Sequence record: PX092659.1
Direction: 5' to 3' (one strand)
DNA: 64,000 nt
Source: a phage
The notes beneath the pieces are model-generated. The model saw nothing but the letters and a program-made list of their open reading frames with translations, was not told where the DNA came from and made no database searches. Below are positions 40,787-62,414 of this stretch, piece by piece. Positions within the stretch are counted from its first letter, which is position 1, and each line of letters opens with the position of its first letter. Made by a program: the position numbers and the translations under genes.

Positions 40787-40792
40787 AACATA

Positions 40793-40867: not shown

Positions 40868-40881
40868 ATTAGGTACTGCGT

Positions 40882-41283
40882 ATGGAAAAGGTTGAATTTG
40901 AGTACTTTGGAGTTATTTTAATTGTACACTTAAATGGTACAATAGAAACTAAAGATAGAATAATAACACAACGAAATCAATATGGCGAGTATACTAGAAC
41001 TATAAAAGGAAAGGTACTGTCTCCACGTTGCAATGGTAAATCTGGGTATTTTCAGGTGAAGATTTGCAATAAGGGATTAGGTAAAAATGAGTATGTGCAC
41101 AGACTCGTATGGATGGCTTTCAACGGTGAAATACCGGAAGGCTATGAAATAGAGCACAAAGATGATGATAAGTCTAATAATGCTTTACCTAACCTAGAAT
41201 TATTCACAAGAAAGCAGAATATGGACAAAGTCTTAAATAAGATGACTAGAGATTCTCTAGGTCGTTTTGAAAAACTTAACTAG
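40882..41283 (+). CDS. HNH homing endonuclease (divergent copy) inside tRNA cluster
   Basis: 133 aa; HRLVWMAFNGEIPEGYEIEHKDDDKSNNALPNLELFTRKQN. Confidence 0.6.
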   Translation: MEKVEFEYFGVILIVHLNGTIETKDRIITQRNQYGEYTRTIKGKVLSPRCNGKSGYFQVKICNKGLGKNEYVHRLVWMAFNGEIPEGYEIEHKDDDKSNNALPNLELFTRKQNMDKVLNKMTRDSLGRFEKLN

Positions 41284-41291
41284 GAGACTAT

Positions 41292-41477
41292 ATGTCTAAG
41301 TTTCAAGAACTCAAGCAAGAGCTAGAAGAATGTGCCTGCCCTGAGTGTAGAGGAATTGGTGAAAGTTCTGATGCAGAAGCAGGAGATACTTTTTGCAATA
41401 TCTGGGTTTGCCCAACTTGCAATGGTACAGGTATTAATCCTAACTGCGGTATTTCCCTAGATATTGAGCGAGGATAA
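41292..41477 (+). CDS. hypothetical small Cys-rich protein (two CxxC pairs)
   Basis: 61 aa; CACPECRG ... CPTCNG. Confidence 0.45.
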   Translation: MSKFQELKQELEECACPECRGIGESSDAEAGDTFCNIWVCPTCNGTGINPNCGISLDIERG

Positions 41478-41578
41478 TACCTGTGAAACTAAAAGATTAT
41501 TATATTGGTTGGTTTGTGGGACTAGTAGTAGTATTTTCACTAGGCTATAATATGTATCAACTAATAAACTGATTACAT

Positions 41579-41655
41579 GGGGGTGTAATCGAATTGGCAT
41601 AGGTACTGGACTTAAAATTCAGGTTTTGTGGGTTCGAATCCCACCACCCCTACCA
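41579..41655 (+). tRNA. tRNA with TAA anticodon (Leu-type anticodon) but short variable arm
   Basis: Acceptor GGGGGTG/CACCCCT, anticodon stem CTGGA/TTCAG with loop CTTAAAA, 5-nt variable region, T-arm GTGGG-TTCGAAT-CCCAC, A73-CCA. Confidence 0.6.
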
Positions 41656-41830
41656 AATTAAGGAAATAAGATGTATAGACATCCACCTCCGCCAACACGT
41701 CGTTCCAGAGAAGTTATCCTCATGGAGTTGACTAAAAACTTCAAGGCAACTCTTGAAGATAGAGATTTAGGCACGGATGAAGACATTGATTTTATTTGTA
41801 GACTATTAAAGATGAAACTGGAGAAACAAC

Positions 41831-42037
41831 ATGGCTAATCCTGAAATTACCGCACAACGTTTCATGCTTAAAGGCATGATTGCTGAAGCAGGTATGACTC
41901 AAGAGGTTGCAGACTTTCATAAGCAATTTCTTGATATTATAACTCTAGCTAAAGAGACTGGAGAAAAAGAACACGGAGCAGCAATTATGGCTATATCTCT
42001 TATTAGTCTAGACTTGGCTGAAGAATCTGGAGTTTAG
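41831..42037 (+). CDS. hypothetical protein
   Basis: 68-aa track ORF; a 56-aa ORF at about 41671-41841 precedes it. Confidence 0.45.
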   Translation: MANPEITAQRFMLKGMIAEAGMTQEVADFHKQFLDIITLAKETGEKEHGAAIMAISLISLDLAEESGV

Positions 42038-42067
42038 CTCCTCCAAACAGAATTTTTAAAAATGTAC

Positions 42068-42097
42068 TTGCCTTTTGCTTTAAATTTCTGATATAAT
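42068..42097 (+). promoter_or_regulatory. sigma70-type promoter (TTGCCT-N18-TATAAT)
   Basis: Cassette-like with 18-nt spacer. Confidence 0.45.
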
Positions 42098-42127
42098 AGT
42101 TATATAAATTGATGAAGGAGTTAACGA

Positions 42128-42403
42128 ATGCAAAATCGTGTTATAGCAGCTGGTATTGAAAGTGCAATCTGTAAATCCTGGGAAGGCTGGGAAGGTGAGA
42201 TTGAATGGCTTTATTTCTATGATGTAGAACTTCTGCCGGAAGTTAAAGCTAAATGTGTTGAAGCTGGCATGGCTCCAGATGCAAAAGCTGATATTGATAT
42301 TTCAATGTCTGAACTTAAAGGTCGTGTAATTACTGTTAGTGATGAGGGCGAAGAAGTCTTCGAACTTCCATTCTCCTTAATTGTCACTCCTAAGTTCGAC
42401 TAA
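42128..42403 (+). CDS. hypothetical protein
   Basis: 91-aa track ORF after GAAGGAG RBS. Confidence 0.5.
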   Translation: MQNRVIAAGIESAICKSWEGWEGEIEWLYFYDVELLPEVKAKCVEAGMAPDAKADIDISMSELKGRVITVSDEGEEVFELPFSLIVTPKFD

Positions 42404-42439
42404 CTAATACAGCACTGAGCAAGTTCTTTAAAATTTGAC

Positions 42440-42468
42440 TTGCTCAGTGCTATAAAACTTGATATAAT
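42440..42468 (+). promoter_or_regulatory. sigma70-type early promoter: TTGCTC-N17-TATAAT
   Basis: Cassette match; drives the RNA-only unit 42496-42938. Confidence 0.55.
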
Positions 42469-42495
42469 AGTTATCTAATTTGGAAAGTTCTTTTT

Positions 42496-42589
42496 AAGGT
42501 AGTTCCTACTTTAGTAGAGTAAATTTTTGGCAGATGGCCCCACCATTTTACCGATAACTCCTAGTCAGTGCGGCAACACTGGCTACCTT
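42496..42589 (+). ncRNA. candidate tRNA-sized structured RNA (non-canonical, no consensus T-loop)
   Basis: Terminal 7-bp helix AAGGTAG/CTACCTT encloses three hairpins (CTAC-ttta-GTAG; ATGG-cccca-CCAT; CAGTG-cggcaa-CACTG); lies between promoter and tRNA-Tyr. Confidence 0.3.
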
Positions 42590-42600
42590 AAAGAGAATTT

Positions 42601-42687
42601 GGGCGTTTATTCCGTAAGTGGTAGCGGAGGGGATTGTAAATCCCTGGTCATTGCGACTCGAGTGGTTCGACTCCATTAACGCCCACC
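42601..42687 (+). tRNA. tRNA-Tyr (anticodon GTA), class II
   Basis: Acceptor GGGCGTT/AACGCCC, anticodon loop TTGTAAA, long variable arm, A73-CCA. Confidence 0.75.
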
Positions 42688-42695
42688 AAATTTAA

Positions 42696-42772
42696 GTCCT
42701 GTTAGACAAACGGGTAAAGTCACTACCCTTTCAAGGTAGGATTTGCGGGTTCGATCCCCGCACAGGACGCCA
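42696..42772 (+). tRNA. tRNA-Glu (anticodon TTC)
   Basis: Acceptor GTCCTGT/ACAGGAC, anticodon stem CTACC/GGTAG with loop CTTTCAA, T-arm GCGGG-TTCGATC-CCCGC. Confidence 0.8.
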
Positions 42773-42780
42773 ATTTCTGC

Positions 42781-42857
42781 ATTCCTAGAGTGTTACTGGA
42801 CAGCATGTCGGTCTCCAAAACCGTACGGTCTAGGTTCGAGTCCTAGTAGGTTTGCCA
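42781..42857 (+). tRNA. tRNA-Trp (anticodon CCA), two U-U mismatches in acceptor stem
   Basis: Anticodon loop CTCCAAA on stem CGGT/ACCG; T-arm CTAGG-TTCGAGT-CCTAG; acceptor ATTCCTA/TAGGTTT pairs at 5 of 7 positions. Confidence 0.55.
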
Positions 42858-42863
42858 AAATTT

Positions 42864-42938
42864 GCACCTTTAGCTGAGATGGATTAGCGCTTGCCTGAAG
42901 AGCTTGAGAGGTTCGTTCGATACGAACAGGGTGCACCA
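42864..42938 (+). tRNA. tRNA-Phe (anticodon GAA)
   Basis: Acceptor GCACCTT/AGGGTGC, D-stem GCTG/TAGC, anticodon loop CTGAAGA, T-arm GTTCG-TTCGATA-CGAAC. Confidence 0.65.
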
Positions 42939-42955
42939 AATTGAAGGAGCTGCTG

Positions 42956-43228
42956 ATGCATCCTGAAAACTTCTTTATTTACTGCGCGGATAAGTCGCTG
43001 AAACGTAGAATTAACAAAGTCTATCATTATCGTGCTAGTCAACAGCCTTATGTATATGCTTTTGACGGTGATCACATTCCACTAGAACAATTATCTTGTG
43101 ATTACATGATATTGAAGAACTTTGACGAGACGAAGATCTCAAGCGTTCATAATCGACAGAATCCCTTAACGTGGAAATATAAGAAGAAAAAGAAAGGCAT
43201 CAAATTCTTAAAAAATGTAGTTGCTTAG
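42956..43228 (+). CDS. hypothetical protein
   Basis: ATG 42956 after GAAGGAG (track ORF starts at TTG 42941). Confidence 0.45.
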   Translation: MHPENFFIYCADKSLKRRINKVYHYRASQQPYVYAFDGDHIPLEQLSCDYMILKNFDETKISSVHNRQNPLTWKYKKKKKGIKFLKNVVA

Positions 43229-43249
43229 TTTCTAAAAGTTCTGTATAAT
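43221..43249 (+). promoter_or_regulatory. sigma70-type early promoter: TTGCTT-N17-TATAAT (within 3' end of previous ORF)
   Basis: Cassette match. Confidence 0.55.
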
Positions 43250-43297
43250 AATTACATAAATTGAACTGGAGAAGCAACATGACAGAACAAGATAAAC

Positions 43298-43373
43298 CGA
43301 CCGTTGGCTGAATGGCTTAGGCGAAGGATTGCAAATCCTTTTTATGTGAGTTCAAATCTCATGCGGTCGTCCA
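43298..43373 (+). tRNA. tRNA-Cys (anticodon GCA)
   Basis: Acceptor CGACCGT/GCGGTCG, anticodon stem AAGGA/TCCTT with loop TTGCAAA, T-arm GTGAG-TTCAAAT-CTCAT. Confidence 0.7.
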
Positions 43374-43380
43374 AATTTTA

Positions 43381-43463
43381 GGGTCGTTAGCCAAGCGGTT
43401 TGGCGGCGGATTGTTAATCCGTGTCGAAAGACAACGTAGGTTCGAATCCTACACGGCCCGCCA
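43381..43463 (+). tRNA. class II-shaped tRNA with GTT (Asn-type) anticodon and G73
   Basis: Acceptor GGGTCGT/ACGGCCC, D-stem GCCA/TGGC, anticodon stem GCGGA/TCCGT with loop TTGTTAA, 13-nt variable arm with GTC/GAC stem, T-arm GTAGG-TTCGAAT-CCTAC. Confidence 0.55.
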
Positions 43464-43565
43464 AATTCTGTGTAGAGTTAAGTAAACCGGTAGCCAACCA
43501 GCTATCATTGCTGACATCGAATTCAGCCACAGATACCATTTTCATTAATAACTGAGGAAACAAGC

Positions 43566-43751
43566 ATGTCCAAGAATGTAATTGCGCAGCTAGAAGTTCA
43601 TCGTGATAGCACTATTAACAATATTGAAGTTGAAAAGAAATACATCGAAGAACTTAAACACGATATACTAGTAAGTCTCAATCGTCTTAATGTACGAAAA
43701 GAGTTTCTTAAAGAACTTAATGCAGCTATTGAAAAACTCAAAGCTGAGTAA
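43566..43751 (+). CDS. hypothetical protein
   Basis: 61-aa track ORF after GAGGAAACAAGC RBS. Confidence 0.45.
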   Translation: MSKNVIAQLEVHRDSTINNIEVEKKYIEELKHDILVSLNRLNVRKEFLKELNAAIEKLKAE

Positions 43752-43760
43752 ATGAATTAT

Positions 43761-43837
43761 GCGACCGGGGCTGGCTTGGTAATGGTACTCCCCTGTCACG
43801 GGAGAGAATGTGGGTTCGAATCCCATCGGTCGCGCCA
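43761..43837 (+). tRNA. tRNA-Asp (anticodon GTC)
   Basis: Acceptor GCGACCG/CGGTCGC, anticodon stem CTCCC/GGGAG with loop CTGTCAC, T-arm TGGG-TTCGAAT-CCCA. Confidence 0.8.
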
Positions 43838-44013
43838 AATAAGGTAGGTTAGCTATGGAATGTAGGGAGTTTACTCCAGAAGAGATAGAGCAGATAAAAG
43901 AATCTGCTATGAAAAATGCTAGAATATCTCTGTCACTGGAAGGTATCATTATTAGTGATGTAAACTTTGAAAAAATCAAAGCCATAGCTGATGAACTGGA
44001 AAAGTAATTTAAT

Positions 44014-44089
44014 ACATCCATAGCTCAATGGTTAGAGCTACCGCCTCTTAAGCGGAGGGTTCTAGGTTCAAGTCCTAGTGGGTGTACCA
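44014..44089 (+). tRNA. tRNA-Lys (anticodon CTT)
   Basis: Acceptor ACATCCA/TGGGTGT, D-arm GCTCAATGGTTAGAGC, anticodon loop CTCTTAA, T-arm CTAGG-TTCAAGT-CCTAG. Confidence 0.65.
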
Positions 44090-44114
44090 AATTAATTTAG
44101 TATGAGAATATACT

Positions 44115-44462
44115 ATGCGTAATGCTAAAGAAGAGCTGTTACTCGCCTTAAAAAATACCAATTCTAAAGTTAAGTGTATTAAAATAGAATTTGGGTATTA
44201 TGGGGACAAAAAAGTCTGGGTATTACCTTTAGGTTATACAGAAGAAGACATTGAGGGGTTTCTTAATAACCTAGACTTTGAATATGATTCTGGATACGGT
44301 GGACAATTACTTTATGGTAATGTATGGTTTGCCGATGGAACTTGGCTAGAACGTGGGGAATATGATGGTGCTGAGTGGTGGGAATACAAGGCTACACCAG
44401 CAATCCCAGAGGAATGCCGAACAATTAATGGTGAAGTAGATAATACTTTACGGTTAAACTAA
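44115..44462 (+). CDS. hypothetical protein
   Basis: 115-aa track ORF. Confidence 0.5.
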   Translation: MRNAKEELLLALKNTNSKVKCIKIEFGYYGDKKVWVLPLGYTEEDIEGFLNNLDFEYDSGYGGQLLYGNVWFADGTWLERGEYDGAEWWEYKATPAIPEECRTINGEVDNTLRLN

Positions 44463-44855
44463 TAAAATTTCAGTGCAGAACACGGAGCTAGCAATTCGGA
44501 AGTGCTGACTCATGATAAGCTGCCTATGTACTTGCAAAGCGGTCGTGTCCAAGACTCGGACTCTTGCACTGAAAACAATCAAACATTCTAGCGTGGTTGA
44601 TGGGGAAACCAGCTTGGCTAGGGCAGAAGCTCGTTCGATTCGAGTGAAAGAATGGTTCTCGTAAGTCCGCACAAGTGATAGCAGGTTCGAGTCCTGTCTA
44701 GAATGATACTATAAAGTTTACTTATTGAGTAGGTTCCGATAGATCGGCGGGTCTATTCTGGCAGTTAAGAGAGGTCTCGCAAACTTCTTTGTCAGCCGTG
44801 GGGTTGGTAGCCTCCAGGTGGCCTACACAATAAGTAAATTTATTAAAAATTCATT

Positions 44856-44884
44856 TGCTATTTCGCTTAATTCTCGGTATAATA
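44856..44884 (+). promoter_or_regulatory. sigma70-type early promoter: TTGCTA-N17-TATAAT
   Basis: Cassette match (coordinates here may be off by 1 nt). Confidence 0.55.
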
Positions 44885-44915
44885 TATCTTATAAAGTGTT
44901 GAGAAGGAAAGCAAA

Positions 44916-45113
44916 ATGAAAAAAGTTTTACTGCTGTCTGTATTCCTACTTACTGGTTGTTTTAAACTTGACTCAACCATTAATAAAGAGTATGAATTTG
45001 CTAAAAATTTCTGTGGCGGAGAGAGTAATATAAAGAATTTCTACATATATAGTACAATTCCTAGTACCGTTTATTGTGTAGACGGACGAATTATTAATAT
45101 TCCTCCACAATAA
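44916..45113 (+). CDS. small lipoprotein (signal peptide with lipobox LLTGC)
   Basis: 65 aa; MKKVLLLSVFLLTGC then mature Cys; AAGGAAAGC RBS. Confidence 0.55.
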   Translation: MKKVLLLSVFLLTGCFKLDSTINKEYEFAKNFCGGESNIKNFYIYSTIPSTVYCVDGRIINIPPQ

Positions 45114-45122
45114 AAGAATTAA

Positions 45123-45198
45123 CAGTGCGTAGCGCAGTTGGTAGCGTGGGAGCCTTGGATGCTTCGGGTCGCAGGTTCGAGTCCTGCCGCACTGACCA
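45123..45198 (+). tRNA. tRNA-Pro (anticodon TGG)
   Basis: Acceptor CAGTGCG/CGCACTG, D-arm GCGCAGTTGGTAGCGT, anticodon stem GGAGC/GCTTC with loop CTTGGAT, T-arm GCAGG-TTCGAGT-CCTGC. Confidence 0.75.
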
Positions 45199-45204
45199 AA
45201 CAAT

Positions 45205-45282
45205 TGCGGGTTAGATCTCTGGTAGAGATCGCTAGTCTCATAAGCTAGAAAGAGGTAGGTTCGATTCCTGCACCCGCTTCCA
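45205..45282 (+). tRNA. tRNA with CAT anticodon (Met/Ile2 type), 1-72 mismatch
   Basis: Anticodon stem CTAGT/GCTAG with loop CTCATAA; T-arm GTAGG-TTCGATT-CCTGC; acceptor TGCGGGT/ACCCGCT has a U-U at position 1-72. Confidence 0.6.
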
Positions 45283-45471
45283 TTTTAATAGAGGGTTTCG
45301 AAATGAAAGTATTTCGATTAGTAGTAAGTGACAAACGTTTAGGTAAGAATACCTCAAAATCCTTACTTGCTCATTATGGAAAAGATGAGAAAGAAGTAAT
45401 GGCGGAGTTTGGGATTAATCACCCTTACTTGAAAGTTCACTCTATTAAAGAAGTATATAATGGTTACTAAT

Positions 45472-45550
45472 AGATCGCTAGCTCAATAGGTTTAGTAGCA
45501 TCCGACTTTTAATCGGAAGGTTCTGGGTTCGAGTCCCAGGCGATCTACCA
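45472..45550 (+). tRNA. tRNA-Lys (anticodon TTT)
   Basis: Perfect acceptor AGATCGC/GCGATCT, anticodon stem TCCGA/TCGGA with loop CTTTTAA, T-arm CTGGG-TTCGAGT-CCCAG. Confidence 0.8.
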
Positions 45551-45568
45551 ATTTCAAGAAAAACGCAG

Positions 45569-45597
45569 TTGCTTAATGCGTAATTTCTTGTTACAAT
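45569..45597 (+). promoter_or_regulatory. sigma70-type early promoter: TTGCTT-N17-TACAAT
   Basis: Cassette variant; followed by about 235 nt of ORF-free leader before tRNA-Ala. Confidence 0.55.
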
Positions 45598-45835
45598 ATT
45601 TATATAAATTGATGAGGAGAAATCCTCGTCATAGTTCACTAAGGTATTAGCTCGACCTAGGACTGGCTGCCAAAAAGCACGATCCCTACGATTCGGGAGA
45701 AGTTCTAGATTAGTCCACTAGATTCAGCGGCAACTGAATAGTGTATCGGGTTTGCGAGATGACGCGGTTCCTTCCGCTCGAAGCGAAGGTGCTGTAGTTA
45801 CGCCGAGCTAATAGCCTTAGTAAACTAAAGAATTT

Positions 45836-45910
45836 GGGCGAATAGTGTCAGCGGGAGCACACCAGACTTGCAATCTGGTAGGGAGGGTTCGAGTCCCTCT
45901 TTGTCCACCA
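45836..45910 (+). tRNA. tRNA-Ala (anticodon TGC)
   Basis: Acceptor GGGCGAA/TTTGTCC with G3-U70 wobble (Ala identity pair), anticodon stem CCAGA/TCTGG with loop CTTGCAA, T-arm GAGGG-TTCGAGT-CCCTC. Confidence 0.8.
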
Positions 45911-45915
45911 AATAC

Positions 45916-45992
45916 GCGTGATTGATGGAATTGGCATACATACCGTCCTTAGAAGTCGGGTTTTGAGGGTTCGAATCCCTTGTCACGCACCA
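45916..45992 (+). tRNA. tRNA with TAG anticodon (Leu-type anticodon) but short variable arm
   Basis: Acceptor GCGTGAT/GTCACGC, anticodon loop CTTAGAA on stem CCGTC/GTCGG (one mismatch), 5-nt variable region, T-arm GAGGG-TTCGAAT-CCCTT, A73. Confidence 0.55.
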
Positions 45993-46104
45993 AATTTGAT
46001 GGTCAGAGTAAATTAAACCTACTATCTCGGTTGAGCTGTTTTAATGGGTTCGAATCCCAGCGAGGCGTAACTGCCTGGCGTGATAGAGGCATCATCTTAT
46101 TACT

Positions 46105-46195
46105 GGAAGAGCAAATCGAATTGGCGACGAAAACCGCTTGGAAAGTGGCTGACTGGTAAAACGGCTTGAGAGTTCAAATCTCTCCTCTTCCGCCA
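46105..46195 (+). tRNA. tRNA-Ser (anticodon GGA), class II
   Basis: Acceptor GGAAGAG/CTCTTCC, anticodon loop TTGGAAA on 4-bp stem, long variable arm, T-arm GAGAG-TTCAAAT-CTCTC, G73-CCA. Confidence 0.6.
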
Positions 46196-46214
46196 AACAC
46201 TTGAGGTAATAATA

Positions 46215-46562
46215 ATGTTAGCAAAAGATAAAGCTCTAGAGTTTTTAGCATCTTTAGATGAAGATAAGATTATAGATGCTGCTGAAAAAGCTGGAATGCC
46301 CGATTTAACATATCTGGAACGTGCTATTATTGCTCGTGATAAACTACAGAAAGAGTTTGCTATTGCCCAGGAGGAGTTTTATACTCGCTATAACGCTCTT
46401 ACTAAGCAAATTGAAAATGAGTGTTCCCATACTTGGGGAGTAACAGAAAACCTAGGTAATGATCACGATGGCTGGTCTAAAGTAAAAATTACCTACTATC
46501 ATCGTAGGACTTGTAAAATTTGTGGAAAAGTAGAAGATTTCACTAGTACGAGTGACTATTAG
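46215..46562 (+). CDS. hypothetical protein
   Basis: 115-aa track ORF after GAGGTAATAATA RBS. Confidence 0.5.
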   Translation: MLAKDKALEFLASLDEDKIIDAAEKAGMPDLTYLERAIIARDKLQKEFAIAQEEFYTRYNALTKQIENECSHTWGVTENLGNDHDGWSKVKITYYHRRTCKICGKVEDFTSTSDY

Positions 46563-46575
46563 TATAATAAATACT

Positions 46576-46665
46576 AGAAGATAGGACGTAGTGGTACGTA
46601 ACTGGTCTTGAAAACCAGCCCGCTGTAGCGATACGGTGATGGTTCGACTCCATTATCTTCTGCCA
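46576..46665 (+). tRNA. tRNA-Ser (anticodon TGA), class II
   Basis: Acceptor AGAAGAT/ATCTTCT, anticodon stem CTGGT/ACCAG with loop CTTGAAA, long variable arm, T-arm GATGG-TTCGACT-CCATT, G73-CCA. Confidence 0.75.
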
Positions 46666-47228
46666 ATTAACTATAAGGAAGTCTTATGAGCAAAACAGTT
46701 ACTGTAACAATGAAGGACGGTAAAAAATTTAAAGCATGTCTTCATGAAACAGATAAGGGGTGGATGGCTTATTTGCCACACCTAGATTCCACCGGGTACG
46801 GAATGACCCAACGTGAAGCTATTGTTGATGCTTTAAATGAGGCTTCTGCTGGTTTATAAAAAATTCTTGAAGTATGCCGGAATCGGTAGACGGGGCTGCC
46901 TAAAAGGTTTATAGGGAACATCCACTCCCTGCAACATACCTCATAAAGCGGCTGAGATAAATGGTCTATCTCGTGAAGGTTCAAGTCCTTCTGCTTCTTG
47001 ATACATCTATGGCTCAAAGTGTAACGGTGCTATTTGATGCTCTTGGTAAGACTTCCCCGACATGCGTTCGGGAGTAAGCTGCTAAGACTAGAGTAGAAGA
47101 GTTTCTGAGAGCCGCCACAATTGAAAATTCGTACTCGTCTTGAGCTGCGTGCAATAGGAGATAACTTGATTAGTATTCTAGAACATGCTAATTGAGGATG
47201 GTTTCGCTAACCCTGCGAGTTTTCAATT

Positions 47229-47305
47229 GTGGCTATATCATAATTGGTTAATGATCCTGATTGTGAATCAGGCCTATGTGGATTCGAATTCCACTAGCCA
47301 CCCCA
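47229..47305 (+). tRNA. tRNA-His (anticodon GTG)
   Basis: Acceptor GTGGCTA/TAGCCAC, C73, anticodon stem CCTGA/TCAGG with loop TTGTGAA, T-arm GTGGA-TTCGAAT-TCCAC. Confidence 0.8.
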
Positions 47306-47330
47306 AATTAACTTAAATAGGAAATAAAAT

Positions 47331-47528
47331 ATGGCTGATTTCTGCAAACAATGCTCCATTGATATGTGGGGCAGAGATACTGGTGATCTTTCTGGTTTGA
47401 TTACAGAAGCTGAGGTCAAAGAAGGTTATGGTGCAGTTGTGATTTGCGAAGGATGCGGAGTTATTCGAGTAGATCATGAAGGCAAACGTTTAAAAGAACC
47501 GGAAAACTTAGGAGAAACAAATGAGTAA
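47331..47528 (+). CDS. hypothetical small Cys-containing protein
   Basis: 65-aa track ORF; CKQC ... CEGCG. Confidence 0.45.
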   Translation: MADFCKQCSIDMWGRDTGDLSGLITEAEVKEGYGAVVICEGCGVIRVDHEGKRLKEPENLGETNE

Positions 47529-47757
47529 TGCTTTAATTAGTGAAATTATGTTAACACGTCTTGCAGAACTGCAAACTCTTCGAGATGAATCTCAGAATAA
47601 CTTAGCCTATCATAAACAGATGGTAGATACTCTTACTACTCGTATTGAAACTTACGAGCGTGATATTGCAGCATTACAGGCTCTTTTCTCAGTATCAGCA
47701 CCAGATACTTTAGAGCAGCCTGTTGTATCTCAGCCAGTAGAAACAGCATCTAGTTAA
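47521..47757 (+). CDS. hypothetical protein
   Basis: 78-aa track ORF, start overlaps upstream stop. Confidence 0.45.
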   Translation: MSNALISEIMLTRLAELQTLRDESQNNLAYHKQMVDTLTTRIETYERDIAALQALFSVSAPDTLEQPVVSQPVETASS

Positions 47758-47766
47758 TAGCATTTT

Positions 47767-47842
47767 TGGAGTGTAGATCAATTGGCAGATCGTCGGCCTC
47801 TGACTCCGAAGGTTCCTGGTTCGATCCCAGGCACTCCAGCCA
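47767..47842 (+). tRNA. tRNA-Gln (anticodon CTG)
   Basis: Acceptor TGGAGTG/CACTCCA, D-stem GATC/GATC, anticodon loop CTCTGAC, T-arm CCTGG-TTCGATC-CCAGG. Confidence 0.75.
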
Positions 47843-47848
47843 AATAAT

Positions 47849-47924
47849 TGGAGAGTAGTGTAACGGTTAGCACAACGGCCTTTGACTCCGTTAATGGTAG
47901 GTTCGATTCCTCCTTCTCCAGCCA
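47849..47924 (+). tRNA. tRNA-Gln (anticodon TTG)
   Basis: Acceptor TGGAGAG/TTCTCCA, anticodon loop CTTTGAC; near-duplicate of the adjacent Gln(CTG) gene. Confidence 0.7.
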
Positions 47925-47932
47925 AGTAATAA

Positions 47933-48008
47933 GCGGTTAAGCACACGGGTTGTGTCGCAGGCCTTCCAAGCCTCGCTGAGTAGGGTTCGATTCCCTCTAG
48001 CCGCTCCA
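47933..48008 (+). tRNA. tRNA-Gly (anticodon TCC)
   Basis: Acceptor GCGGTTA/TAGCCGC, anticodon stem AGGC/GCCT with loop CTTCCAA, T-arm AGGG-TTCGATT-CCCT. Confidence 0.65.
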
Positions 48009-48024
48009 ACTTTAAGGAAACGTT

Positions 48025-48276
48025 ATGCACGTTTTTGAGTTTCGTAATAAAAGTACCGATAAACGAGTTATTGTTATTGGAGAAACATACCGAGCATACG
48101 AACAAACTGACGGCTCTGTCATCCTGAATGATGAGAAAGGAGGTTTTAGCTTTTATCCAGAAGAACCTTATGAAGAGTTTCGAAAACAATTTAACCTAGA
48201 CTGGAGAAAGCATTTAAACACTGTTGCTTCATCTGTAGTATTGCCAACTACCAGTACTGTACTATCTAATGGCTGA
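48025..48276 (+). CDS. hypothetical protein
   Basis: 83-aa track ORF; a 52-aa ORF follows at about 48271-48432. Confidence 0.45.
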   Translation: MHVFEFRNKSTDKRVIVIGETYRAYEQTDGSVILNDEKGGFSFYPEEPYEEFRKQFNLDWRKHLNTVASSVVLPTTSTVLSNG

Positions 48277-48443
48277 TAACCTAAAAGTCAAGATCGACAA
48301 ACAAAAGAAACGTGTAGAAGTAGAGATTGGTGAAGAACGTGTAGCCTTCACCTTTGAATTCCTACAACAAATGGCAATGGTAGTTATGACTGATAAGTCT
48401 CCTGTTATTGAAAAAGAAATCCCGTTGAAATAACGGGATCATC

Positions 48444-48518
48444 GCTCCTAAAGCATTGCTGGCGATGCAGTTGCCTTGTAAGCATCTGAACCGGGTTCGA
48501 TTCCTGGTGGGAGCACCA
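48444..48518 (+). tRNA. tRNA-Thr (anticodon TGT)
   Basis: Acceptor GCTCCTA/TGGGAGC, D-arm GCATTGCTGGCGATGC, anticodon loop CTTGTAA, T-arm CCGGG-TTCGATT-CCTGG. Confidence 0.75.
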
Positions 48519-48533
48519 AATTTAAAAATTCAT

Positions 48534-48562
48534 TTGCTTTCTCTCTTATTTATTGTTATAAT
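48534..48562 (+). promoter_or_regulatory. sigma70-type early promoter: TTGCTT-N17-TATAAT
   Basis: Cassette match. Confidence 0.6.
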
Positions 48563-48592
48563 ATTTATATAAATTAATGAGAGGGAAACCAA

Positions 48593-48883
48593 ATGAAACG
48601 TTATCTTTCTGTTGTGTTCCAAACTGGTGGTCAACGCTATACCTATGAATTTCCTAGCTCTTGGAAGATCAAAGAAGGTGATCAAGTAGTAGTGTTAACA
48701 CCGCGAGATGGATATAAAGTAGTAACGGTTAAACAAGTATTCCCAAAAGATCATGAACCAGCTAAAGGCATTCGCTATAAGATGATTCATGGTGTGGTTC
48801 GTCAAGTACCACGAACTGAGGTAGAAGTAGATAAGACTGGAGAAGCTAAATTCCGTTATACTTCTTACCTAGATAGTGTGTGA
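48593..48883 (+). CDS. hypothetical protein
   Basis: 96-aa track ORF after GAGAGGGAAACC RBS. Confidence 0.5.
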   Translation: MKRYLSVVFQTGGQRYTYEFPSSWKIKEGDQVVVLTPRDGYKVVTVKQVFPKDHEPAKGIRYKMIHGVVRQVPRTEVEVDKTGEAKFRYTSYLDSV

Positions 48884-48898
48884 TGTAAATATTTTAAT

Positions 48899-48975
48899 GC
48901 TTCGGTAGCTTAGCGATCTAAAGCACTCGGCTGATAACCGAGAGATCGGGGGTTTAAATCCCTCCCGGAGTACCA
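48899..48975 (+). tRNA. tRNA-Ile (anticodon GAT)
   Basis: Acceptor GCTTCGG/CCGGAGT, D-stem GCTT/AAGC, perfect anticodon stem CTCGG/CCGAG with loop CTGATAA, T-arm GGGGG-TTTAAAT-CCCTC. Confidence 0.75.
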
Positions 48976-49071
48976 AATTTAGGAATTAAGACTATGCGTC
49001 CAGGAAAGTTTAAAAAAGCTAGTTGGTCTAAAGAGTATAAAGAATACTTACTTAGTCTAATAAAACATAAT

Positions 49072-49147
49072 AGTTAGTTGGCAGAGTGGTTATGCACCTC
49101 CTTCATACGGAGCGACTACAGTGGTTCAAATCCACTACTAACTACCA
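49072..49147 (+). tRNA. tRNA with CAT anticodon (Met/fMet/Ile2 type)
   Basis: Perfect acceptor AGTTAGT/ACTAACT, anticodon stem CTCC/GGAG with loop TTCATAC, T-arm AGTGG-TTCAAAT-CCACT. Confidence 0.7.
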
Positions 49148-57620: not shown

Positions 57621-57649
57621 TTGACTTTTAGCCCTAGTTATTATATAAT
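57621..57649 (+). promoter_or_regulatory. sigma70-type promoter: TTGACT-N17-TATAAT
   Basis: TTGACT, 17 nt, TATAAT then catAAATTagt cassette tail. Confidence 0.6.
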
Positions 57650-57682
57650 ATATACATAAATTAGTTAAGAGAGGTATATATT

Positions 57683-58403: not shown

Positions 58404-58436
58404 AAGCCTGATCTTAGCGGATCAGGCTTTTATTTT
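58404..58436 (+). terminator. rho-independent terminator
   Basis: AGCCTGATC ttagcg GATCAGGCT followed by TTTATTTT. Confidence 0.75.
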
Positions 58437-58438: not shown

Positions 58439-58467
58439 TTGCTTTTTGCTAAAAATTTTGGTATAAT
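58439..58467 (+). promoter_or_regulatory. sigma70-type early promoter: TTGCTT-N17-TATAAT
   Basis: Cassette match directly after the terminator. Confidence 0.6.
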
Positions 58468-58557
58468 ACTTATATAAATTGATGAGAAGGCTATCTTCGT
58501 ATGGGTTCTAGTCATACTAAGGGCTATCTACGCACTACAAGAAATAGGAGTATTCCA

Positions 58558-58935
58558 ATGAACTATGCATATCTTATTATTAATAATAACGTAGTTTGTG
58601 GTACTCGCGCTGTTGAGATGGGTATTACAGAAGAAAAGTATAAGTCACTTCCAGAAAAGGAACAACAATATTATGTTGAAGAAGCTGCTTGGGAGTATGC
58701 TGAGGTTTATCCCGAAGAACGTGAAGATCGTCTTACTCTTGTTGTGTCTCTGGGTTTGGTTGGCTGTGATACCGAAGTTGATACAGACCTAGAGACTTTA
58801 GAGGAGTGGGAAGAGTTAGATATTTCAGCTAAAAACTCCTTAATCCGTGAAGCCTTTTGGGAAGCTGTAGATTGCCATGTAGTATTTGAGCCTAATGATG
58901 AAGAGGCTGAAAAACATACTAACCATTGGAGATAA
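58558..58935 (+). CDS. hypothetical acidic protein
   Basis: ATG 58558 (MNYAYLIINN) after AGGAG; track ORF extends to 58501. Confidence 0.45.
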   Translation: MNYAYLIINNNVVCGTRAVEMGITEEKYKSLPEKEQQYYVEEAAWEYAEVYPEEREDRLTLVVSLGLVGCDTEVDTDLETLEEWEELDISAKNSLIREAFWEAVDCHVVFEPNDEEAEKHTNHWR

Positions 58936-58939
58936 TTAA

Positions 58940-59185
58940 ATGTTAGCGGAACAAGCAAAACGTTTAGCTAGAATAAATAGAGCCGCGTCCCTTAAGAGCC
59001 GAAAGAAAACGTATAGATGGGTTAAGCGAAGGATAGTATCTTCTGTCGAGATTGGAGGTTCTTTTGTACAGCTTAATCGTGACGAAATTAGTTATGAAGC
59101 TATAAAAGCCCTCTATAAAGATGGTTATACTCTAAAACTATCAAATAATTATGGTACAACTATTTTAAATGTTATTTGGGAATAA
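58940..59185 (+). CDS. hypothetical protein
   Basis: 81-aa track ORF. Confidence 0.45.
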   Translation: MLAEQAKRLARINRAASLKSRKKTYRWVKRRIVSSVEIGGSFVQLNRDEISYEAIKALYKDGYTLKLSNNYGTTILNVIWE

Positions 59186-59187
59186 TT

Positions 59188-60051
59188 ATGAAAAAAGAAT
59201 TTAATGTGCATAAAACACTAGTAGTACCTGATGATGTTAACTTATTCTTTGTTGGTGATATTCATGGATGCAACGATTTACTAGAAGATGCATTACAATT
59301 AGCTGGCTATAACGGCAAGAAAGACTGCGTTGTATGCGTTGGGGATTTAATTGATCGAGGCACGCAGAACCTACAAGTTTTAGCCAAATTCCTGTATAAT
59401 CCACGCTTTATCAGTGTCCGTGGTAATCATGACCAATTTATGATTGTGGGAGATTGGGCTAACTGGATGTATAACGGTGGTATGTGGGCCATGAATGAAC
59501 TAGATGCAGATACCATTAAAAATATTGCTGAAGACATGGCTGAAAAAATGCCAGTATTTCTGACTGTATTGCATCGTGGTAAAAAGTATGGTGTTGTTCA
59601 TGGTGGTGTACCTTTTACGTACAAAGAATGCGGTAACGAAGTAGAAACCCCAGTATGGGATAGCCTTATTGCACAAGTAGAAGCAGCTAAGGAAGATCCA
59701 CATGACCATCCTGGATACCATGTTGAGCCATACTTATGGGATCGAGATGTAATCCAAGAAATAGGTTTTCACTTAGCTAAAAATGGTGAAGAACACTCAC
59801 ATTTCCAGCGTTATGCAGGGTTTAAAGAGAAATACATGGTAGAAGTACCTCCGGTTAATGGAGTAGACTTTGTATTTCATGGGCATACCGGAGTACCTTA
59901 CCCGATTTTATACCAGAACCGTGTTTACCTAGATACCGGCGGTGTTTTCAACGGGCAGTTGACGGTTGCGCAGGTTAACGATGAAACTGGCAAAATCACC
60001 ACATTTACCACAGACAAAAATGATAGCTGCGGTGTACAGAGGATCCTTTAA
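59188..60051 (+). CDS. Ser/Thr protein phosphatase-like metallophosphoesterase
   Basis: ATG 59188 (MKKEFNVHK); calcineurin-like motifs GDIHGC, GDLIDRG, GNHD, HGG. Confidence 0.7.
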   Translation: MKKEFNVHKTLVVPDDVNLFFVGDIHGCNDLLEDALQLAGYNGKKDCVVCVGDLIDRGTQNLQVLAKFLYNPRFISVRGNHDQFMIVGDWANWMYNGGMWAMNELDADTIKNIAEDMAEKMPVFLTVLHRGKKYGVVHGGVPFTYKECGNEVETPVWDSLIAQVEAAKEDPHDHPGYHVEPYLWDRDVIQEIGFHLAKNGEEHSHFQRYAGFKEKYMVEVPPVNGVDFVFHGHTGVPYPILYQNRVYLDTGGVFNGQLTVAQVNDETGKITTFTTDKNDSCGVQRIL

Positions 60052-60338
60052 TGAATGATAGAATGAAAGAAGTACAAGAAGAATTACGAGCAATGCGTAT
60101 TGATGCCCTTCGTTGGAGGGCATTAGTTAATGCTTTCGTCAAAGGAGACACCGGAGTAATATATTCTGGAATAGCAGTCAATTTTTGTTTTAATTCTCCT
60201 GCTGAAATAGAGATAGAAACAAGGCTTACTACCTACCTTAATGAGGTAGACCTTAAGGAAGGAGAGACTCCCGAGGAGTTTAAAACTAGAGTATTAACTA
60301 CCTGGGTTGATAACTTAATACAAAAAAGGAGTAAGTGA
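60051..60338 (+). CDS. hypothetical protein
   Basis: 95-aa track ORF, start overlapping previous stop. Confidence 0.45.
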   Translation: MNDRMKEVQEELRAMRIDALRWRALVNAFVKGDTGVIYSGIAVNFCFNSPAEIEIETRLTTYLNEVDLKEGETPEEFKTRVLTTWVDNLIQKRSK

Positions 60339-60928
60339 TGAAGGTTAAATTCTGGTCAGACTTGCACTTAGACCACCCTGGAGCACTACGTTTCCGTCCG
60401 TGGTTTAAGAACATGAAAGAGCACGATGAGTATATTCTAGATACTTTGTCCAAGCATATTGGTAAACGAACAAAACTTATTTTGCTAGGAGATATTGCAG
60501 TAGGTCGTGAAGGTCTGGACAAATTAAAGTCGGTTATCCACAATGTCCCTAATCAACTCATTATGGGTAATCATGATGCGGAGCGTCAAGGACTGAGTAT
60601 TAGGGACTTAGCGGAAGTTTATGATGATATTCAGGCTCTAGGTAAACAGACTGGAGGTGGCAAAAAGTTTTGGCTATCTCACTGCCCTTTGCATCCCAAT
60701 GAACTTCGTGGTAAACTAAATATTCACGGACACGTACATACTACTTCTTTACGTGATCCACGTTATATTAATGTCTCATTTGAAATGAGTAAAATTCCAA
60801 TTCCGCTAGAGGATATTGTATCTGGTAAGTTTACTAGCTATGATAGGGTAGTTAATTGTACTACCGGCGAGGTATTACAAATAGGAGAAGACGTAGCTGC
60901 TGTATTACGTGGTGATATAAATGTCTAA
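60335..60928 (+). CDS. metallophosphoesterase (calcineurin-like), second copy
   Basis: 197 aa; LLGDIAVGR, GNHD and HGHVH motifs. Confidence 0.65.
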   Translation: MMKVKFWSDLHLDHPGALRFRPWFKNMKEHDEYILDTLSKHIGKRTKLILLGDIAVGREGLDKLKSVIHNVPNQLIMGNHDAERQGLSIRDLAEVYDDIQALGKQTGGGKKFWLSHCPLHPNELRGKLNIHGHVHTTSLRDPRYINVSFEMSKIPIPLEDIVSGKFTSYDRVVNCTTGEVLQIGEDVAAVLRGDINV

Positions 60929-61036
60929 GTATATAGCTGAGGCTATTATTAAACGAATCATACAAGCGATAGCAATACTTATAATTATTTGTATTGCTAT
61001 TGGCACAGGATTAGGCATTTTAACTAAAAGTTTTAT

Positions 61037-61065
61037 TTGCTAAAATGCTTAAGTTTCTGTATAAT
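61037..61065 (+). promoter_or_regulatory. sigma70-type early promoter: TTGCTA-N17-TATAAT
   Basis: Cassette match. Confidence 0.6.
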
Positions 61066-61095
61066 TACTTTATAAATTGATGAGAAGGAATCAAA

Positions 61096-61527
61096 ATGAA
61101 CAAAGTTGATAAAGCTCTAGTTTTCGCAGCAGCAGATAAGTTTGAACAAGTTAAGGCAACTTTCCGAACCTTGTTCCAGTCTTACGTTCAGGATAAGTCT
61201 AATCCTATTTCTGAACGCTTGATGGTTTGGGAGTGTCATGCTTGCAATGCCCTGCTAATTGCTGATTACCGTAGTGATATAGATAAAGATCTTTGTGAAA
61301 TCCTTATCCCCGAGGAAGCAGAACGTTATCAGTTAATCTCTTTCCAAGATTTGGCGGAGCATATCATTCCTGATGATCTTTGGGACAAATATTACGGTGA
61401 TCCTGAAGATGAAGGAATGACTCCAGAAGCCTGTATTGAGCTGATCTGCAAAGATCATCCTGAAATTGCAGAGAAATTTGAAAAAGTTTTTGCTTCTGAG
61501 TTCTCCGGCGTTGTTAACGATTGGTAA
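61096..61527 (+). CDS. hypothetical protein
   Basis: 143-aa track ORF after GAGAAGGAATCAAA RBS. Confidence 0.5.
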   Translation: MNKVDKALVFAAADKFEQVKATFRTLFQSYVQDKSNPISERLMVWECHACNALLIADYRSDIDKDLCEILIPEEAERYQLISFQDLAEHIIPDDLWDKYYGDPEDEGMTPEACIELICKDHPEIAEKFEKVFASEFSGVVNDW

Positions 61528-61605: not shown

Positions 61606-61884
61606 ATGGAAAACATGACTAAAGACTTCGACGCCTCTAACCTTACCAAGACTGAAATGGCCAATGTATTAGCAATTCTCCTCGACATGCAAGGATTTGA
61701 GGGGCAACTGATGAAAATGTCTATTCCGGCGATGAAGAAGATGTATGATTCTCTTAACAAGAACGCTATGGCCTTTAACTTAGCAAAACAAGAGGCACGC
61801 TTTGCTAAGGAGCATCAAGCAGTGGCAGAACGCCGAGCAGCTAGCTTTGAGCGTGAAGTCAAGCAATTAAAGAAAAAATGCTAA
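61606..61884 (+). CDS. hypothetical protein
   Basis: ATG 61606 (MENMTKDF) after GAGAGG; track ORF extends to 61588. Confidence 0.4.
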   Translation: MENMTKDFDASNLTKTEMANVLAILLDMQGFEGQLMKMSIPAMKKMYDSLNKNAMAFNLAKQEARFAKEHQAVAERRAASFEREVKQLKKKC

Positions 61885-62414
61885 CACAAGAAAGATTAAA
61901 AGAGTTATTTGAATACCGCCCGGAAACGGGCGAGTTTATAAGGAAAGTCAGTAGAGGACGAGGTAAAGCAGGTAGTATTGCTGGTAGTCCTGATAAGGAT
62001 GGTTATATATTTATTGGGATAAATAGAAGAAGATATGCAGCCCATAGGTTAGCCTTTTTGTACATGGAGGGGTATATTCCAAATCTAGTACACCACTTAA
62101 ATAATATAAGAAAAGATAATAGATGGTGTAATTTAAAAGATTGTACGTCCCAAGAAAATAATCGTAGCAAAATCGCTCAATCTAATTCGGGGTACTTAGG
62201 AGTTACCTGGAAAAAAGATCGACAACAATGGAGAGTCCAGGCCAGAAGCGCCGAAAGCATTACAGTACACGGAGGCTACTTTAGGTATCTAGATTTAGAG
62301 TTGGCAGTTCAAAGAGCTAATGAACTACGTTTAGAACTACATGGGCCTAATGCTGTTATAGAAACTTTTGATCATACAAAACCCTTACCTACTTTAGAGG
62401 ACTTAAATAAATGA
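61878..62414 (+). CDS. HNH homing endonuclease (paralog family)
   Basis: 178 aa; MLTQERLKELFEYRPETGEFIRKV and AHRLAFLYMEGYIPNLVHHLNNIRKDNRWCNL; closest paralog of 5283-5816. Confidence 0.7.
   Translation: MLTQERLKELFEYRPETGEFIRKVSRGRGKAGSIAGSPDKDGYIFIGINRRRYAAHRLAFLYMEGYIPNLVHHLNNIRKDNRWCNLKDCTSQENNRSKIAQSNSGYLGVTWKKDRQQWRVQARSAESITVHGGYFRYLDLELAVQRANELRLELHGPNAVIETFDHTKPLPTLEDLNK

What the first reader, a model, noticed from the sequence alone, without database searches (positions are those of the whole stretch)
59188..60928. Two calcineurin-like metallophosphoesterases in tandem
ORFs 59188-60051 and 60335-60928 both carry GD..G...GNHD metallophosphatase motifs but differ in size and sequence; one resembles Ser/Thr protein phosphatases, the other a nuclease or phosphodiesterase-type enzyme. 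Two such enzymes side by side suggest targeting of host phosphoproteins or cyclic/oligonucleotide signals.
Basis: partly seen in the sequence, partly recalled or inferred. Interest (0 to 1): 0.35.

Follow-up and report, generated by a model that had tools for sequence, protein, structure and literature searches.

The report
Two known T5-phage metallophosphoesterase genes
The window is from a T5-like phage, and the two genes are its long-annotated early "Ser/Thr phosphatase" (T5.035 orthologue) and "phosphoesterase" (a variant of T5.034); both have intact active sites, but they are not a duplicated or strictly adjacent pair and nothing here is new.

Summary
ORF 59188-60051 (287 aa) and ORF 60338-60928 (196 aa; the ATG, not the GTG at 60335, is the likely start) are both binuclear metallophosphoesterases with every metal-binding residue intact.

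They are not strictly side by side: a conserved 95-aa gene (60051-60338) lies between them. They are not paralogues from a duplication either, since they share only about 31% identity over 45 residues.

The window is a T5-like phage (Tequintavirus, 98.8% identical to Salmonella phage MET_P1_100_107).
- **ORF1** is 95% identical to T5.035. It is a lambda-phosphatase-like PPP enzyme (PDB 1G5B, E=1.6e-32) with an extra helical insert of about 65 aa. A 2020 paper states that the classical T5 early gene C2 maps to this 32-kDa phosphatase ORF and that C2's effect on host RNA polymerase is probably indirect.
- **ORF2** is a minimal metallophosphoesterase like Aquifex aq_1665 (1XM7, function unknown). 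It is a 53%-identical alternative allele of T5.034, and its family occurs in about 1,200 phage genomes.

Both lie in one sigma-70 early operon. I found no evidence that either degrades cyclic or oligonucleotide signals. Verdict: already known and ordinary; the substrates remain untested.

The parts
58404..58429 (+). Rho-independent terminator ending the upstream (thioredoxin) transcription unit
   Evidence: 11-bp stem, 5 GC pairs, T-rich tail. T5 records annotate a terminator at the equivalent place.
58439..58467 (+). Sigma-70 early promoter (TTGCTT, 17 nt, TGgTATAAT with extended -10), followed by the conserved leader ATAAATTGATGAGAAGG
   Evidence: Read from the sequence. It aligns with the promoter at 61037-65 and shares the leader. 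T5 records annotate an early promoter (T5P10) at the homologous site upstream of T5.036. Inferred, not shown.
58501..58935 (+). First gene of the operon, a DUF7167 protein (144 aa from ATG 58501, or 125 aa from ATG 58558). Accessory: absent from T5 and slur09
   Evidence: Pfam DUF7167 4.6e-06; phrog_6798 3e-77, aligned from residue 20. Absent.
58940..59185 (+). 81-aa basic protein (pI 10.2), orthologue of T5.036, unknown function. Database label 'major head protein' is implausible
   Evidence: phrog_7354 1e-53.
59188..60051 (+). ORF1: lambda-phosphatase-like PPP-family metallophosphatase, orthologue of T5.035 (orf5c; reported locus of gene C2)
   Evidence: Literature.
60051..60338 (+). 95-aa acidic protein of unknown function lying between the two enzymes. 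Start and stop codons overlap its neighbours by 1 nt. Found in only 94 phage records
   Evidence: phrog_14979 4e-63, no Pfam hit. Distribution. Absent from T5.
60338..60928 (+). ORF2: minimal aq_1665-like (COG4186) metallophosphoesterase, an alternative allele (53% id) of T5.034
   Evidence: COG4186 note in the T5 record.
60921..61043 (+). 40-aa hydrophobic ORF overlapping the end of ORF2 by 8 nt; possibly the last gene of the operon (not verified)
   Evidence: translation (IIKRIIQAIAILIIICIAIGTGLGIL). Not tested further.
61037..61065 (+). Next early promoter (TTGCTA, 17 nt, TATAAT) with the same conserved leader; marks the start of the next unit (DUF7020 gene, 61096-61527)
   Evidence: Equivalent to promoter P-F30 in T5.

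Best explanation
Two distantly related members of the binuclear (calcineurin-like) metallophosphoesterase superfamily are co-transcribed from one sigma-70 early promoter of a T5-like phage, in a tightly packed six-gene unit (58501-61043).

ORF1 is the orthologue of T5.035. It is a Mn2+-type phosphomonoesterase built on the lambda-phosphatase core, with all ten lambda-Pase catalytic residues and a four-helix insert of about 65 aa. Most likely it dephosphorylates a protein (host or phage) early in infection. Because gene C2 is reported to map to this ORF, it probably acts indirectly on the phage-modified host RNA polymerase.

ORF2 is an independent enzyme, a 196-aa minimal metallophosphoesterase of the aq_1665/COG4186 type. 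Its family is almost exclusively phage-borne and sits in early DNA-replication and nucleotide-metabolism modules. Most likely it is a metal-dependent phosphodiesterase acting on a nucleic-acid or nucleotide substrate.

The two are neighbours through conserved early-region synteny, not as an obligate pair.

Shown: identity, fold, intact active sites, operon layout, distribution. Inferred: metal, substrates, the link to late transcription.
For: Phage identity: 98.8% nt identity to Salmonella phage MET_P1_100_107 and 98% to Tequintavirus slur09; 440 phage records match.

ORF1:
- 95% identical to T5.035 and 100% identical to the MET_P1_100_107 protein.
- phrog_246 'NinI-like Ser/Thr phosphatase' 4e-92; 1G5B E=1.6e-32.
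- Invariant D24 H26 D53 D56 R57 N80 H81 H138 R186 H233 across 44 homologues down to 31% identity.
- AF2 pLDDT 94; 1G5B target-normalised TM 0.82. Extra helices at 157-207.
- C2 link: PMC7472727 says the C2 mutation maps to a putative Ser/Thr phosphatase ORF of 32 kDa and that its effect on RNAP is likely indirect. ORF1 is 32.45 kDa.

ORF2:
- phrog_547 5e-57.
- Invariant D8 H10 D52 N78 H79 H115 H132 H134, plus family-specific P117 H119 R124 Y143.
- AF2 pLDDT 93.5; 1XM7 TM 0.66-0.69; profile E=7e-20.
- Next-best profile hits are nucleases: MPE 6NVO 0.008, Mre11/SbcD 0.012-0.026.
- Found in 1,224 phage records.
- Neighbourhoods of distant members hold DNA pol A, dCMP deaminase, ThyX and PhoH.

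Operon: terminator, promoters, and 1-8 nt gene overlaps.

Variable spacing between the two genes.
Against: - No enzymatic data exist for either protein.
- The C2 mapping is a one-sentence statement in the introduction of a paper about another gene. The T5 GenBank records do not label T5.035 as C2, and I could not read the primary genetics papers.
- Lambda phosphatase itself also hydrolyses 2',3'-cyclic nucleotides and bis-pNPP (PMC2190708), so a lambda-like active site does not prove a protein substrate.
- For ORF2, the closest solved relative has no known function. The nuclease resemblance is at superfamily level only (E about 0.01), and the neighbourhood argument is guilt by association.
Confidence: 0.6

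Rival explanations
1. Counter-defence by signal destruction: one or both enzymes hydrolyse bacterial immune second messengers (cyclic di-/tri-nucleotides, cyclic mononucleotides, 2'-5' oligoadenylates). This is the second half of the first reader's idea.
For: Early expression. ORF2's family is widespread in virulent phages (1,224 records). ORF2 exists as swappable alleles, 53% identical between this window and T5, which is typical of arms-race genes. Metallophosphoesterases can be phosphodiesterases, and lambda-Pase cleaves 2',3'-cNMP.
Against: No similarity to any known signal-degrading anti-defence family was seen. There were no PADLOC hits. ORF1 maps to an essential-type classical gene tied to transcription rather than defence. 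No literature hit supports the idea.
Confidence: 0.1
2. ORF2 is an early DNase that degrades host DNA and silences host defence genes, like the mycobacteriophage metallophosphoesterase Gp48.
For: PMC12287305 shows an early phage MPE with phosphodiesterase and DNase activity. The closest characterised profile relatives of ORF2 are nucleases.
Against: The cluster-A mycobacteriophage MPE (Bxb1 gp47) is not detectably related beyond motif V: BLASTP E=8.7 and hhalign probability 3%. In T5, host DNA degradation is annotated to the pre-early A1 protein.
Confidence: 0.15
3. ORF1 is an RNA end-healing 2',3'-phosphatase (Pnkp-like) that repairs tRNAs cut by host anticodon nucleases.
For: Hits to the CthPnkp phosphatase domain: 4J6O E=1.3e-4 by sequence and 3e-10 by fold; TIGR04075 35 bits; phrog_8238 'RNA ligase' 1.5e-11. 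Lambda-Pase has 2',3'-cyclic phosphodiesterase activity. The phage carries 24 tRNA genes.
Against: The scores are far below family cutoffs (35 vs 750) and 20 or more orders of magnitude weaker than the lambda-Pase match. No kinase or ligase partner is seen in the operon. The rest of the genome was not searched.
Confidence: 0.08
4. ORF1 is an ApaH-like dinucleoside polyphosphate (Ap4A / Np4-cap) hydrolase.
For: NF001204 58.9 bits and TIGR00668 34.9 bits. PDB ApaH 9T9N E=1.5e-9. The T5 record cites COG0639, 'diadenosine tetraphosphatase and related Ser/Thr phosphatases'.
Against: Below the equivalog cutoffs (176; 222.85). The motifs are GDLIDRG and GHT, as in lambda-Pase (alignment), rather than the ApaH variants as I remember them. 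Lambda-Pase is by far the best match.
Confidence: 0.07
5. The two genes are a recent tandem duplication (paralogues) that has diverged.
For: Same superfamily, same strand, same operon.
Against: Only 31% identity over 45 aa. Different PHROGs and different best structures. Each family has its own wide distribution.
Confidence: 0.01

Closest known systems
Bacteriophage T5 gene T5.035 (orf5c; 'NinI-like Ser/Thr phosphatase'; reported locus of early gene C2)
   Same: 95% amino-acid identity, same length (287 aa), same position downstream of the T5.036 orthologue in the early region.
   Different: Nothing material: 15 substitutions, none at catalytic residues.
Bacteriophage lambda Ser/Thr phosphatase (NinI, PDB 1G5B)
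   Same: PPP signature motifs and all ten catalytic residues; same fold (target-normalised TM 0.82).
   Different: 29% identity. ORF1 is 66 aa longer, with a helical insert at about residues 155-220. Lambda ninI is non-essential, whereas C2 was defined by mutations in classical T5 genetics.
Bacteriophage T5 gene T5.034 ('phosphoesterase', COG4186)
   Same: Same family, same motifs, same side of the phosphatase gene.
   Different: Only 53% identity, and 196 vs 173 aa (longer C-terminus). In T5 it abuts T5.035 directly, whereas here a 95-aa gene intervenes. Homology between the two genomes breaks exactly at the phosphatase stop codon.
Aquifex aeolicus aq_1665 (PDB 1XM7), uncharacterised metallophosphoesterase
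   Same: Full-length profile match E=7e-20; fold TM 0.66-0.69; same five motifs.
   Different: 26% identity, from a cellular thermophile, function unknown, so it gives no mechanism. No functional literature was found.
Mycobacteriophage A10ZJ24 Gp48 / Bxb1 gp47 metallophosphoesterase (early DNase that counters host defence)
   Same: Early phage-encoded binuclear metallophosphoesterase.
   Different: No detectable family-level similarity to ORF2; 255 vs 196 aa.

Membership tests
Binuclear metallophosphoesterase superfamily (calcineurin-like; Pfam Metallophos / Metallophos_2) | Five motifs D-x-H, G-D, G-N-H-[DE], H, G-H-x-H supplying the metal ligands | tested here: met
   ORF1: D24/H26, D53, N80/H81, H138, H233. 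ORF2: D8/H10, D52, N78/H79, H115, H132/H134. All invariant in the family alignments.
Binuclear metallophosphoesterase superfamily (calcineurin-like; Pfam Metallophos / Metallophos_2) | Score at or above Pfam gathering threshold | tested here: inconclusive
   ORF1 passes (61.5 vs 21.5). ORF2 alone is just below (24.1 vs 27; 18.5 vs 21.5). However, 27 of 35 ORF2 family members match Metallophos at E<0.01, and fold and profile evidence are decisive.
PPP / lambda-phosphatase-like protein phosphatases (ORF1) | Signature GDxHG, GDxxDRG, GNH[ED], plus phosphate-binding Arg residues and the general-acid His | tested here: met
   GDIHG at 23, GDLIDRG at 52, GNHD at 79, R57, R186, H81.
PPP / lambda-phosphatase-like protein phosphatases (ORF1) | Lambda-Pase fold | tested here: met
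   AF2 pLDDT 94. 1G5B Foldseek E=1.5e-20, target-normalised TM 0.82.
PPP / lambda-phosphatase-like protein phosphatases (ORF1) | Mn2+-dependent phosphoprotein phosphatase activity | not testable with these tools
   Needs enzyme assays.
E. coli PrpA/PrpB equivalogs (NF008516, NF007425) | NCBIfam equivalog cutoff | tested here: not met
   95.4 vs 326 and 81.8 vs 332 bits.
ApaH bis(5'-nucleosyl)-tetraphosphatase (NF001204, TIGR00668) | NCBIfam equivalog cutoff | tested here: not met
   58.9 vs 176 and 34.9 vs 222.85 bits.
Bacterial Pnkp (TIGR04075) | Kinase-phosphatase-ligase architecture and cutoff score | tested here: not met
   35 vs 750 bits. Only part of the phosphatase domain aligns (residues 21-84).
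aq_1665 / COG4186-type minimal metallophosphoesterases (ORF2) | Full-length homology and shared fold with 1XM7 | tested here: met
   Profile E=7e-20 over positions 3-160. Foldseek E=1.8e-10, TM 0.66/0.69. The T5.034 record cites COG4186.
PdeM / MPE ligase-associated ssDNA endonuclease (TIGR04123; PDB 6NVO) | NCBIfam cutoff; ligase/Lhr operon context | tested here: not met
   24.8 vs 150 bits. 6NVO profile E=0.008, N-terminal half only. No ligase or helicase neighbours.
Mycobacteriophage cluster-A MPE DNase (Gp48 / Bxb1 gp47) | Detectable sequence homology | tested here: not met
   BLASTP E=8.7; hhalign probability 3.4%.

The most novel reading that the evidence does not exclude
The aq_1665/COG4186-type enzyme (ORF2) belongs to a family found in about 1,200 sequenced phage genomes: T5-like phages, large Staphylococcus, Enterococcus and Salmonella phages, Acinetobacter and Aeromonas phages of 160-240 kb, and roughly 250-kb Vibrio phages. 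No member of the family has a reported substrate. It occurs here as a swappable allele cassette. It could be a general phage counter-defence phosphodiesterase, destroying an immune nucleotide signal or a nucleic-acid intermediate, rather than a housekeeping enzyme.
Probability: 0.1. Interest if true: 0.6.

Novelty: already known. Interest (0 to 1): 0.15.

Why it matters
As a discovery it matters little. Both genes are annotated in all three T5 GenBank records examined and in hundreds of T5-like genomes, and T5.035 is even used as a phylogenetic marker (orf5c).

What interest remains is biochemical.
- The T5.035 phosphatase is reportedly the classical gene C2, which older work connected to the phage-modified RNA polymerase, yet its substrate has never been identified.
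- The ORF2 family is one of the more widespread phage enzymes with no known substrate.

Finding either substrate would be useful, but this window offers no new handle on them.

Tried and rejected
1. Tandem duplication: rejected. BLASTP gives 31% identity over 45 aa.
2. ORF2 as a homologue of the mycobacteriophage Gp48/Bxb1 gp47 DNase: rejected at family level.
3. ORF2 or ORF1 as the T5 deoxynucleoside-5'-monophosphatase: rejected. dmp is T5.001, in the pre-early terminal repeat.
4. Similarity to defence-system proteins in PADLOC: none for either enzyme or the small neighbours.
5. CASP14 paper, a hit for 'bacteriophage T5' plus 'phosphoesterase': irrelevant, the terms refer to different targets.
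6. Literature searches for a phage phosphatase countering kinase-based defence, for COG4186/1XM7 function, and for gene C2 papers: nothing usable. The 1970s J. Virol. papers on C2 are not held.
7. orf95 as an obligate partner or inhibitor of ORF2: unlikely. orf95 occurs in only 94 records, whereas ORF2-type alleles at 80% identity or more occur in about 268.
Full report
**What the window is.** The 2.2 kb around the finding is 98.8% identical to Salmonella phage MET_P1_100_107 and 98% identical to Escherichia phage slur09 (Demerecviridae, Tequintavirus). 440 phage records match it. The surrounding genes are dNMP kinase, Clp-like protease, holin, L-Ala-D-Glu endolysin, thioredoxin and a 24-gene tRNA cluster. 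This is the early region of a T5-like genome.

**Check of the observation.** Both ORFs exist on the + strand.

ORF1 (59188-60051, 287 aa, 32.45 kDa) carries GDIHG, GDLIDRG, GNHD, H138, WDR and GHT. It passes Pfam Metallophos at 61.5 bits against a cutoff of 21.5.

ORF2 carries DLH, GD, GNHD, SH and GHVH. As a single sequence it sits just under the Pfam gathering scores. A profile of 35 family members matches the solved metallophosphoesterase 1XM7 at E=7e-20. The AlphaFold model (pLDDT 93.5) superposes on 1XM7 with TM 0.66-0.69.

In family alignments reaching down to about 31-32% identity, every metal or phosphate ligand is invariant:
- ORF1: D24 H26 D53 D56 R57 N80 H81 H138 R186 H233.
- ORF2: D8 H10 D52 N78 H79 H115 H132 H134.

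Three corrections apply.
- ORF2 most likely starts at the ATG at 60338. AGGAG lies a few nt upstream, TGATG overlaps the previous stop, and the slur09 record annotates a 591-nt CDS.
- The two genes are separated by a conserved 95-aa gene (60051-60338; phrog_14979, E=4e-63).
- They are not duplicates. They share only 31% identity over 45 residues around motifs II-III.

**ORF1.** It is 95% identical to T5.035, which has been annotated as a Ser/Thr phosphatase in all three T5 records. T5.035 is also used as the phylogenetic marker 'orf5c' (PMC5816814).

Its best solved relative is lambda phosphatase 1G5B, at E=1.6e-32 by sequence. By fold the match is E=1.5e-20 with target-normalised TM 0.82. The alignment puts lambda D20/H22/D49/D52/R53/N75/H76/H139/H186 on ORF1 D24/H26/D53/D56/R57/N80/H81/H138/H233. 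The WNR/WDR match puts lambda R162 on R186.

Relative to lambda-Pase and the 215-225-aa homologues, ORF1 has about 65 extra residues that the model folds into four helices (157-207). The second part of this insert is confined to the closest T5-like group.

ORF1 fails the NCBIfam equivalog cutoffs for PrpA/PrpB, ApaH and Pnkp. It is therefore a lambda-Pase-like subfamily of its own (phrog_246, E=4e-92).

The most informative functional lead comes from the literature. Klimuk et al. [quoted passage not shown] They conclude that C2's involvement in regulating host RNA polymerase is therefore 'likely indirect' (PMC7472727). Older work had assumed that a 90-kDa protein co-purifying with RNA polymerase was the C2 product, because it was absent from C2-mutant infections (same source). 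[quoted passage not shown]

The only 32-kDa Ser/Thr phosphatase ORF seen in the T5 stretches I examined (about 24 kb) is T5.035. The link is therefore credible, but it rests on one sentence, and I could not read the primary genetics.

**ORF2.** It belongs to phrog_547 (E=5e-57). The T5 record for its counterpart T5.034 cites COG4186.

Its only close solved relative is Aquifex aq_1665 (1XM7), of unknown function. I found no functional literature on that family. The next profile hits are nucleases at marginal E-values: Pseudomonas MPE at 0.008 and Mre11/SbcD at 0.012-0.026. The fold neighbours are small phosphodiesterases (YfcE, MJ0936), Mre11, LpxH and Vps29.

The family carries its own invariant residues beyond the metal ligands: H13, P117, H119, R124, Y143 and a DPRYINV block.

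tblastn finds the family in 1,224 phage records. These include T5-like phages, large Staphylococcus, Enterococcus and Salmonella phages, Acinetobacter and Aeromonas phages of 160-240 kb, and roughly 250-kb Vibrio phages. The one 'bacterial' hit examined lies in a prophage-like block with DNA polymerase A and dCMP deaminase. Another distant member lies beside ThyX, PhoH and purine-synthesis genes.

This context favours a nucleic-acid or nucleotide substrate, but it is only association.

**Are they a pair?** Both sit in one early transcription unit, laid out as follows:
- terminator at 58404-29;
- promoter at about 58439-67 with an extended -10 and the conserved leader ATAAATTGATGAGAAGG;
- six genes with gaps of 2-4 nt or overlaps of 1-8 nt;
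- the next, similar promoter at 61037-65.

The distance between the two enzymes is not conserved. In T5 they abut directly. Here one gene intervenes, and that gene occurs in only 94 records. In two diverged Demerecviridae-like contigs, where the phosphatase is 47-49% identical, 5-7 small ORFs (1.5-2.3 kb) separate them.

ORF2 is itself a replaceable cassette. It is only 53% identical to T5.034 while the neighbouring phosphatase is 95% identical. Nucleotide homology with T5 stops exactly at the phosphatase stop codon.

So the linkage reflects conserved early-region synteny with local mosaicism, not a coupled two-enzyme system.

**Rivals.**
- Degradation of immune signalling nucleotides is possible in principle. 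Lambda-Pase cleaves 2',3'-cNMPs (PMC2190708), and the ORF2 allele swapping looks like arms-race behaviour. No positive evidence was found, however.
- A host-DNA-degrading role like mycobacteriophage Gp48 (PMC12287305) is weakened on two counts. Family-level similarity is lacking, and T5 assigns host DNA degradation to pre-early A1.
- RNA end-healing and ApaH-like readings of ORF1 rest on sub-threshold hits.
- Neither enzyme is the T5 dNMP phosphatase, which is T5.001.

**Verdict.** However, these genes are annotated in all three T5 records examined and in hundreds of genomes. The 'side by side implies joint targeting' inference is not supported. Interest is low (0.15). The open questions, namely the substrate of the C2-linked phosphatase and of the pan-phage aq_1665-type enzyme, need bench work rather than sequence analysis.

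Noticed in passing
window 58940-59185: This 81-aa, strongly basic (pI 10.2) early-operon protein, the T5.036 orthologue, is labelled 'major head protein' in RefSeq records and in phrog_7354. That is almost certainly an annotation error that has propagated. The real T5 major head protein is pb8, about 50 kDa (PMC7472727).
   Followed up: partly
window 58501-58935: A DUF7167 gene sits between the thioredoxin terminator/promoter and the T5.036 orthologue. It is absent from T5 and slur09 but present in some relatives (Baret, phiLLS, FFH_1), so it is an accessory insertion. The start codon is ambiguous: 58501 by promoter-leader spacing, 58558 by PHROG alignment.
   Followed up: partly
window 60046-60060 vs T5 (L002 about 6430-6445): There is a sharp mosaic breakpoint. 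Nucleotide identity with T5 is high up to the phosphatase stop/next start (TTTAATGAA) and is then lost. This marks the left junction of an exchangeable cassette: orf95 plus the 196-aa esterase here, against the 173-aa esterase in T5.
   Followed up: yes
window 58462-58488, 61060-61086 and about 57644-57670: Early promoters share a conserved downstream leader, TATAAT(n3-4)TATAAATTGATGAGAAGG, that runs into the ribosome-binding site. It is well conserved between the 58.4k and 61.0k units and only partly in the 57.6k unit.
   Followed up: partly
window 61878-62414: An HNH_3 homing-endonuclease-like ORF (178 aa, Pfam 5.7e-11). slur09 has a different, shorter 103-aa ORF at the corresponding position, so this is probably a mobile insertion.
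   Followed up: no
window 37090-49147: A cluster of 24 tRNA genes on the + strand, including three tRNA-Met(CAT) and pairs for Lys, Gln, Leu and Ser. This is typical of T5-like phages.
   Followed up: no
window 60921-61043: A 40-aa, very hydrophobic ORF overlaps the last 8 nt of the esterase gene and ends at the next promoter. It may be a small membrane protein. It was not checked for conservation.
   Followed up: no
window about 24000: GC skew changes sign near 24 kb, and the coding strand switches from - to + there. This is the divergent junction of two early-gene blocks.
   Followed up: no
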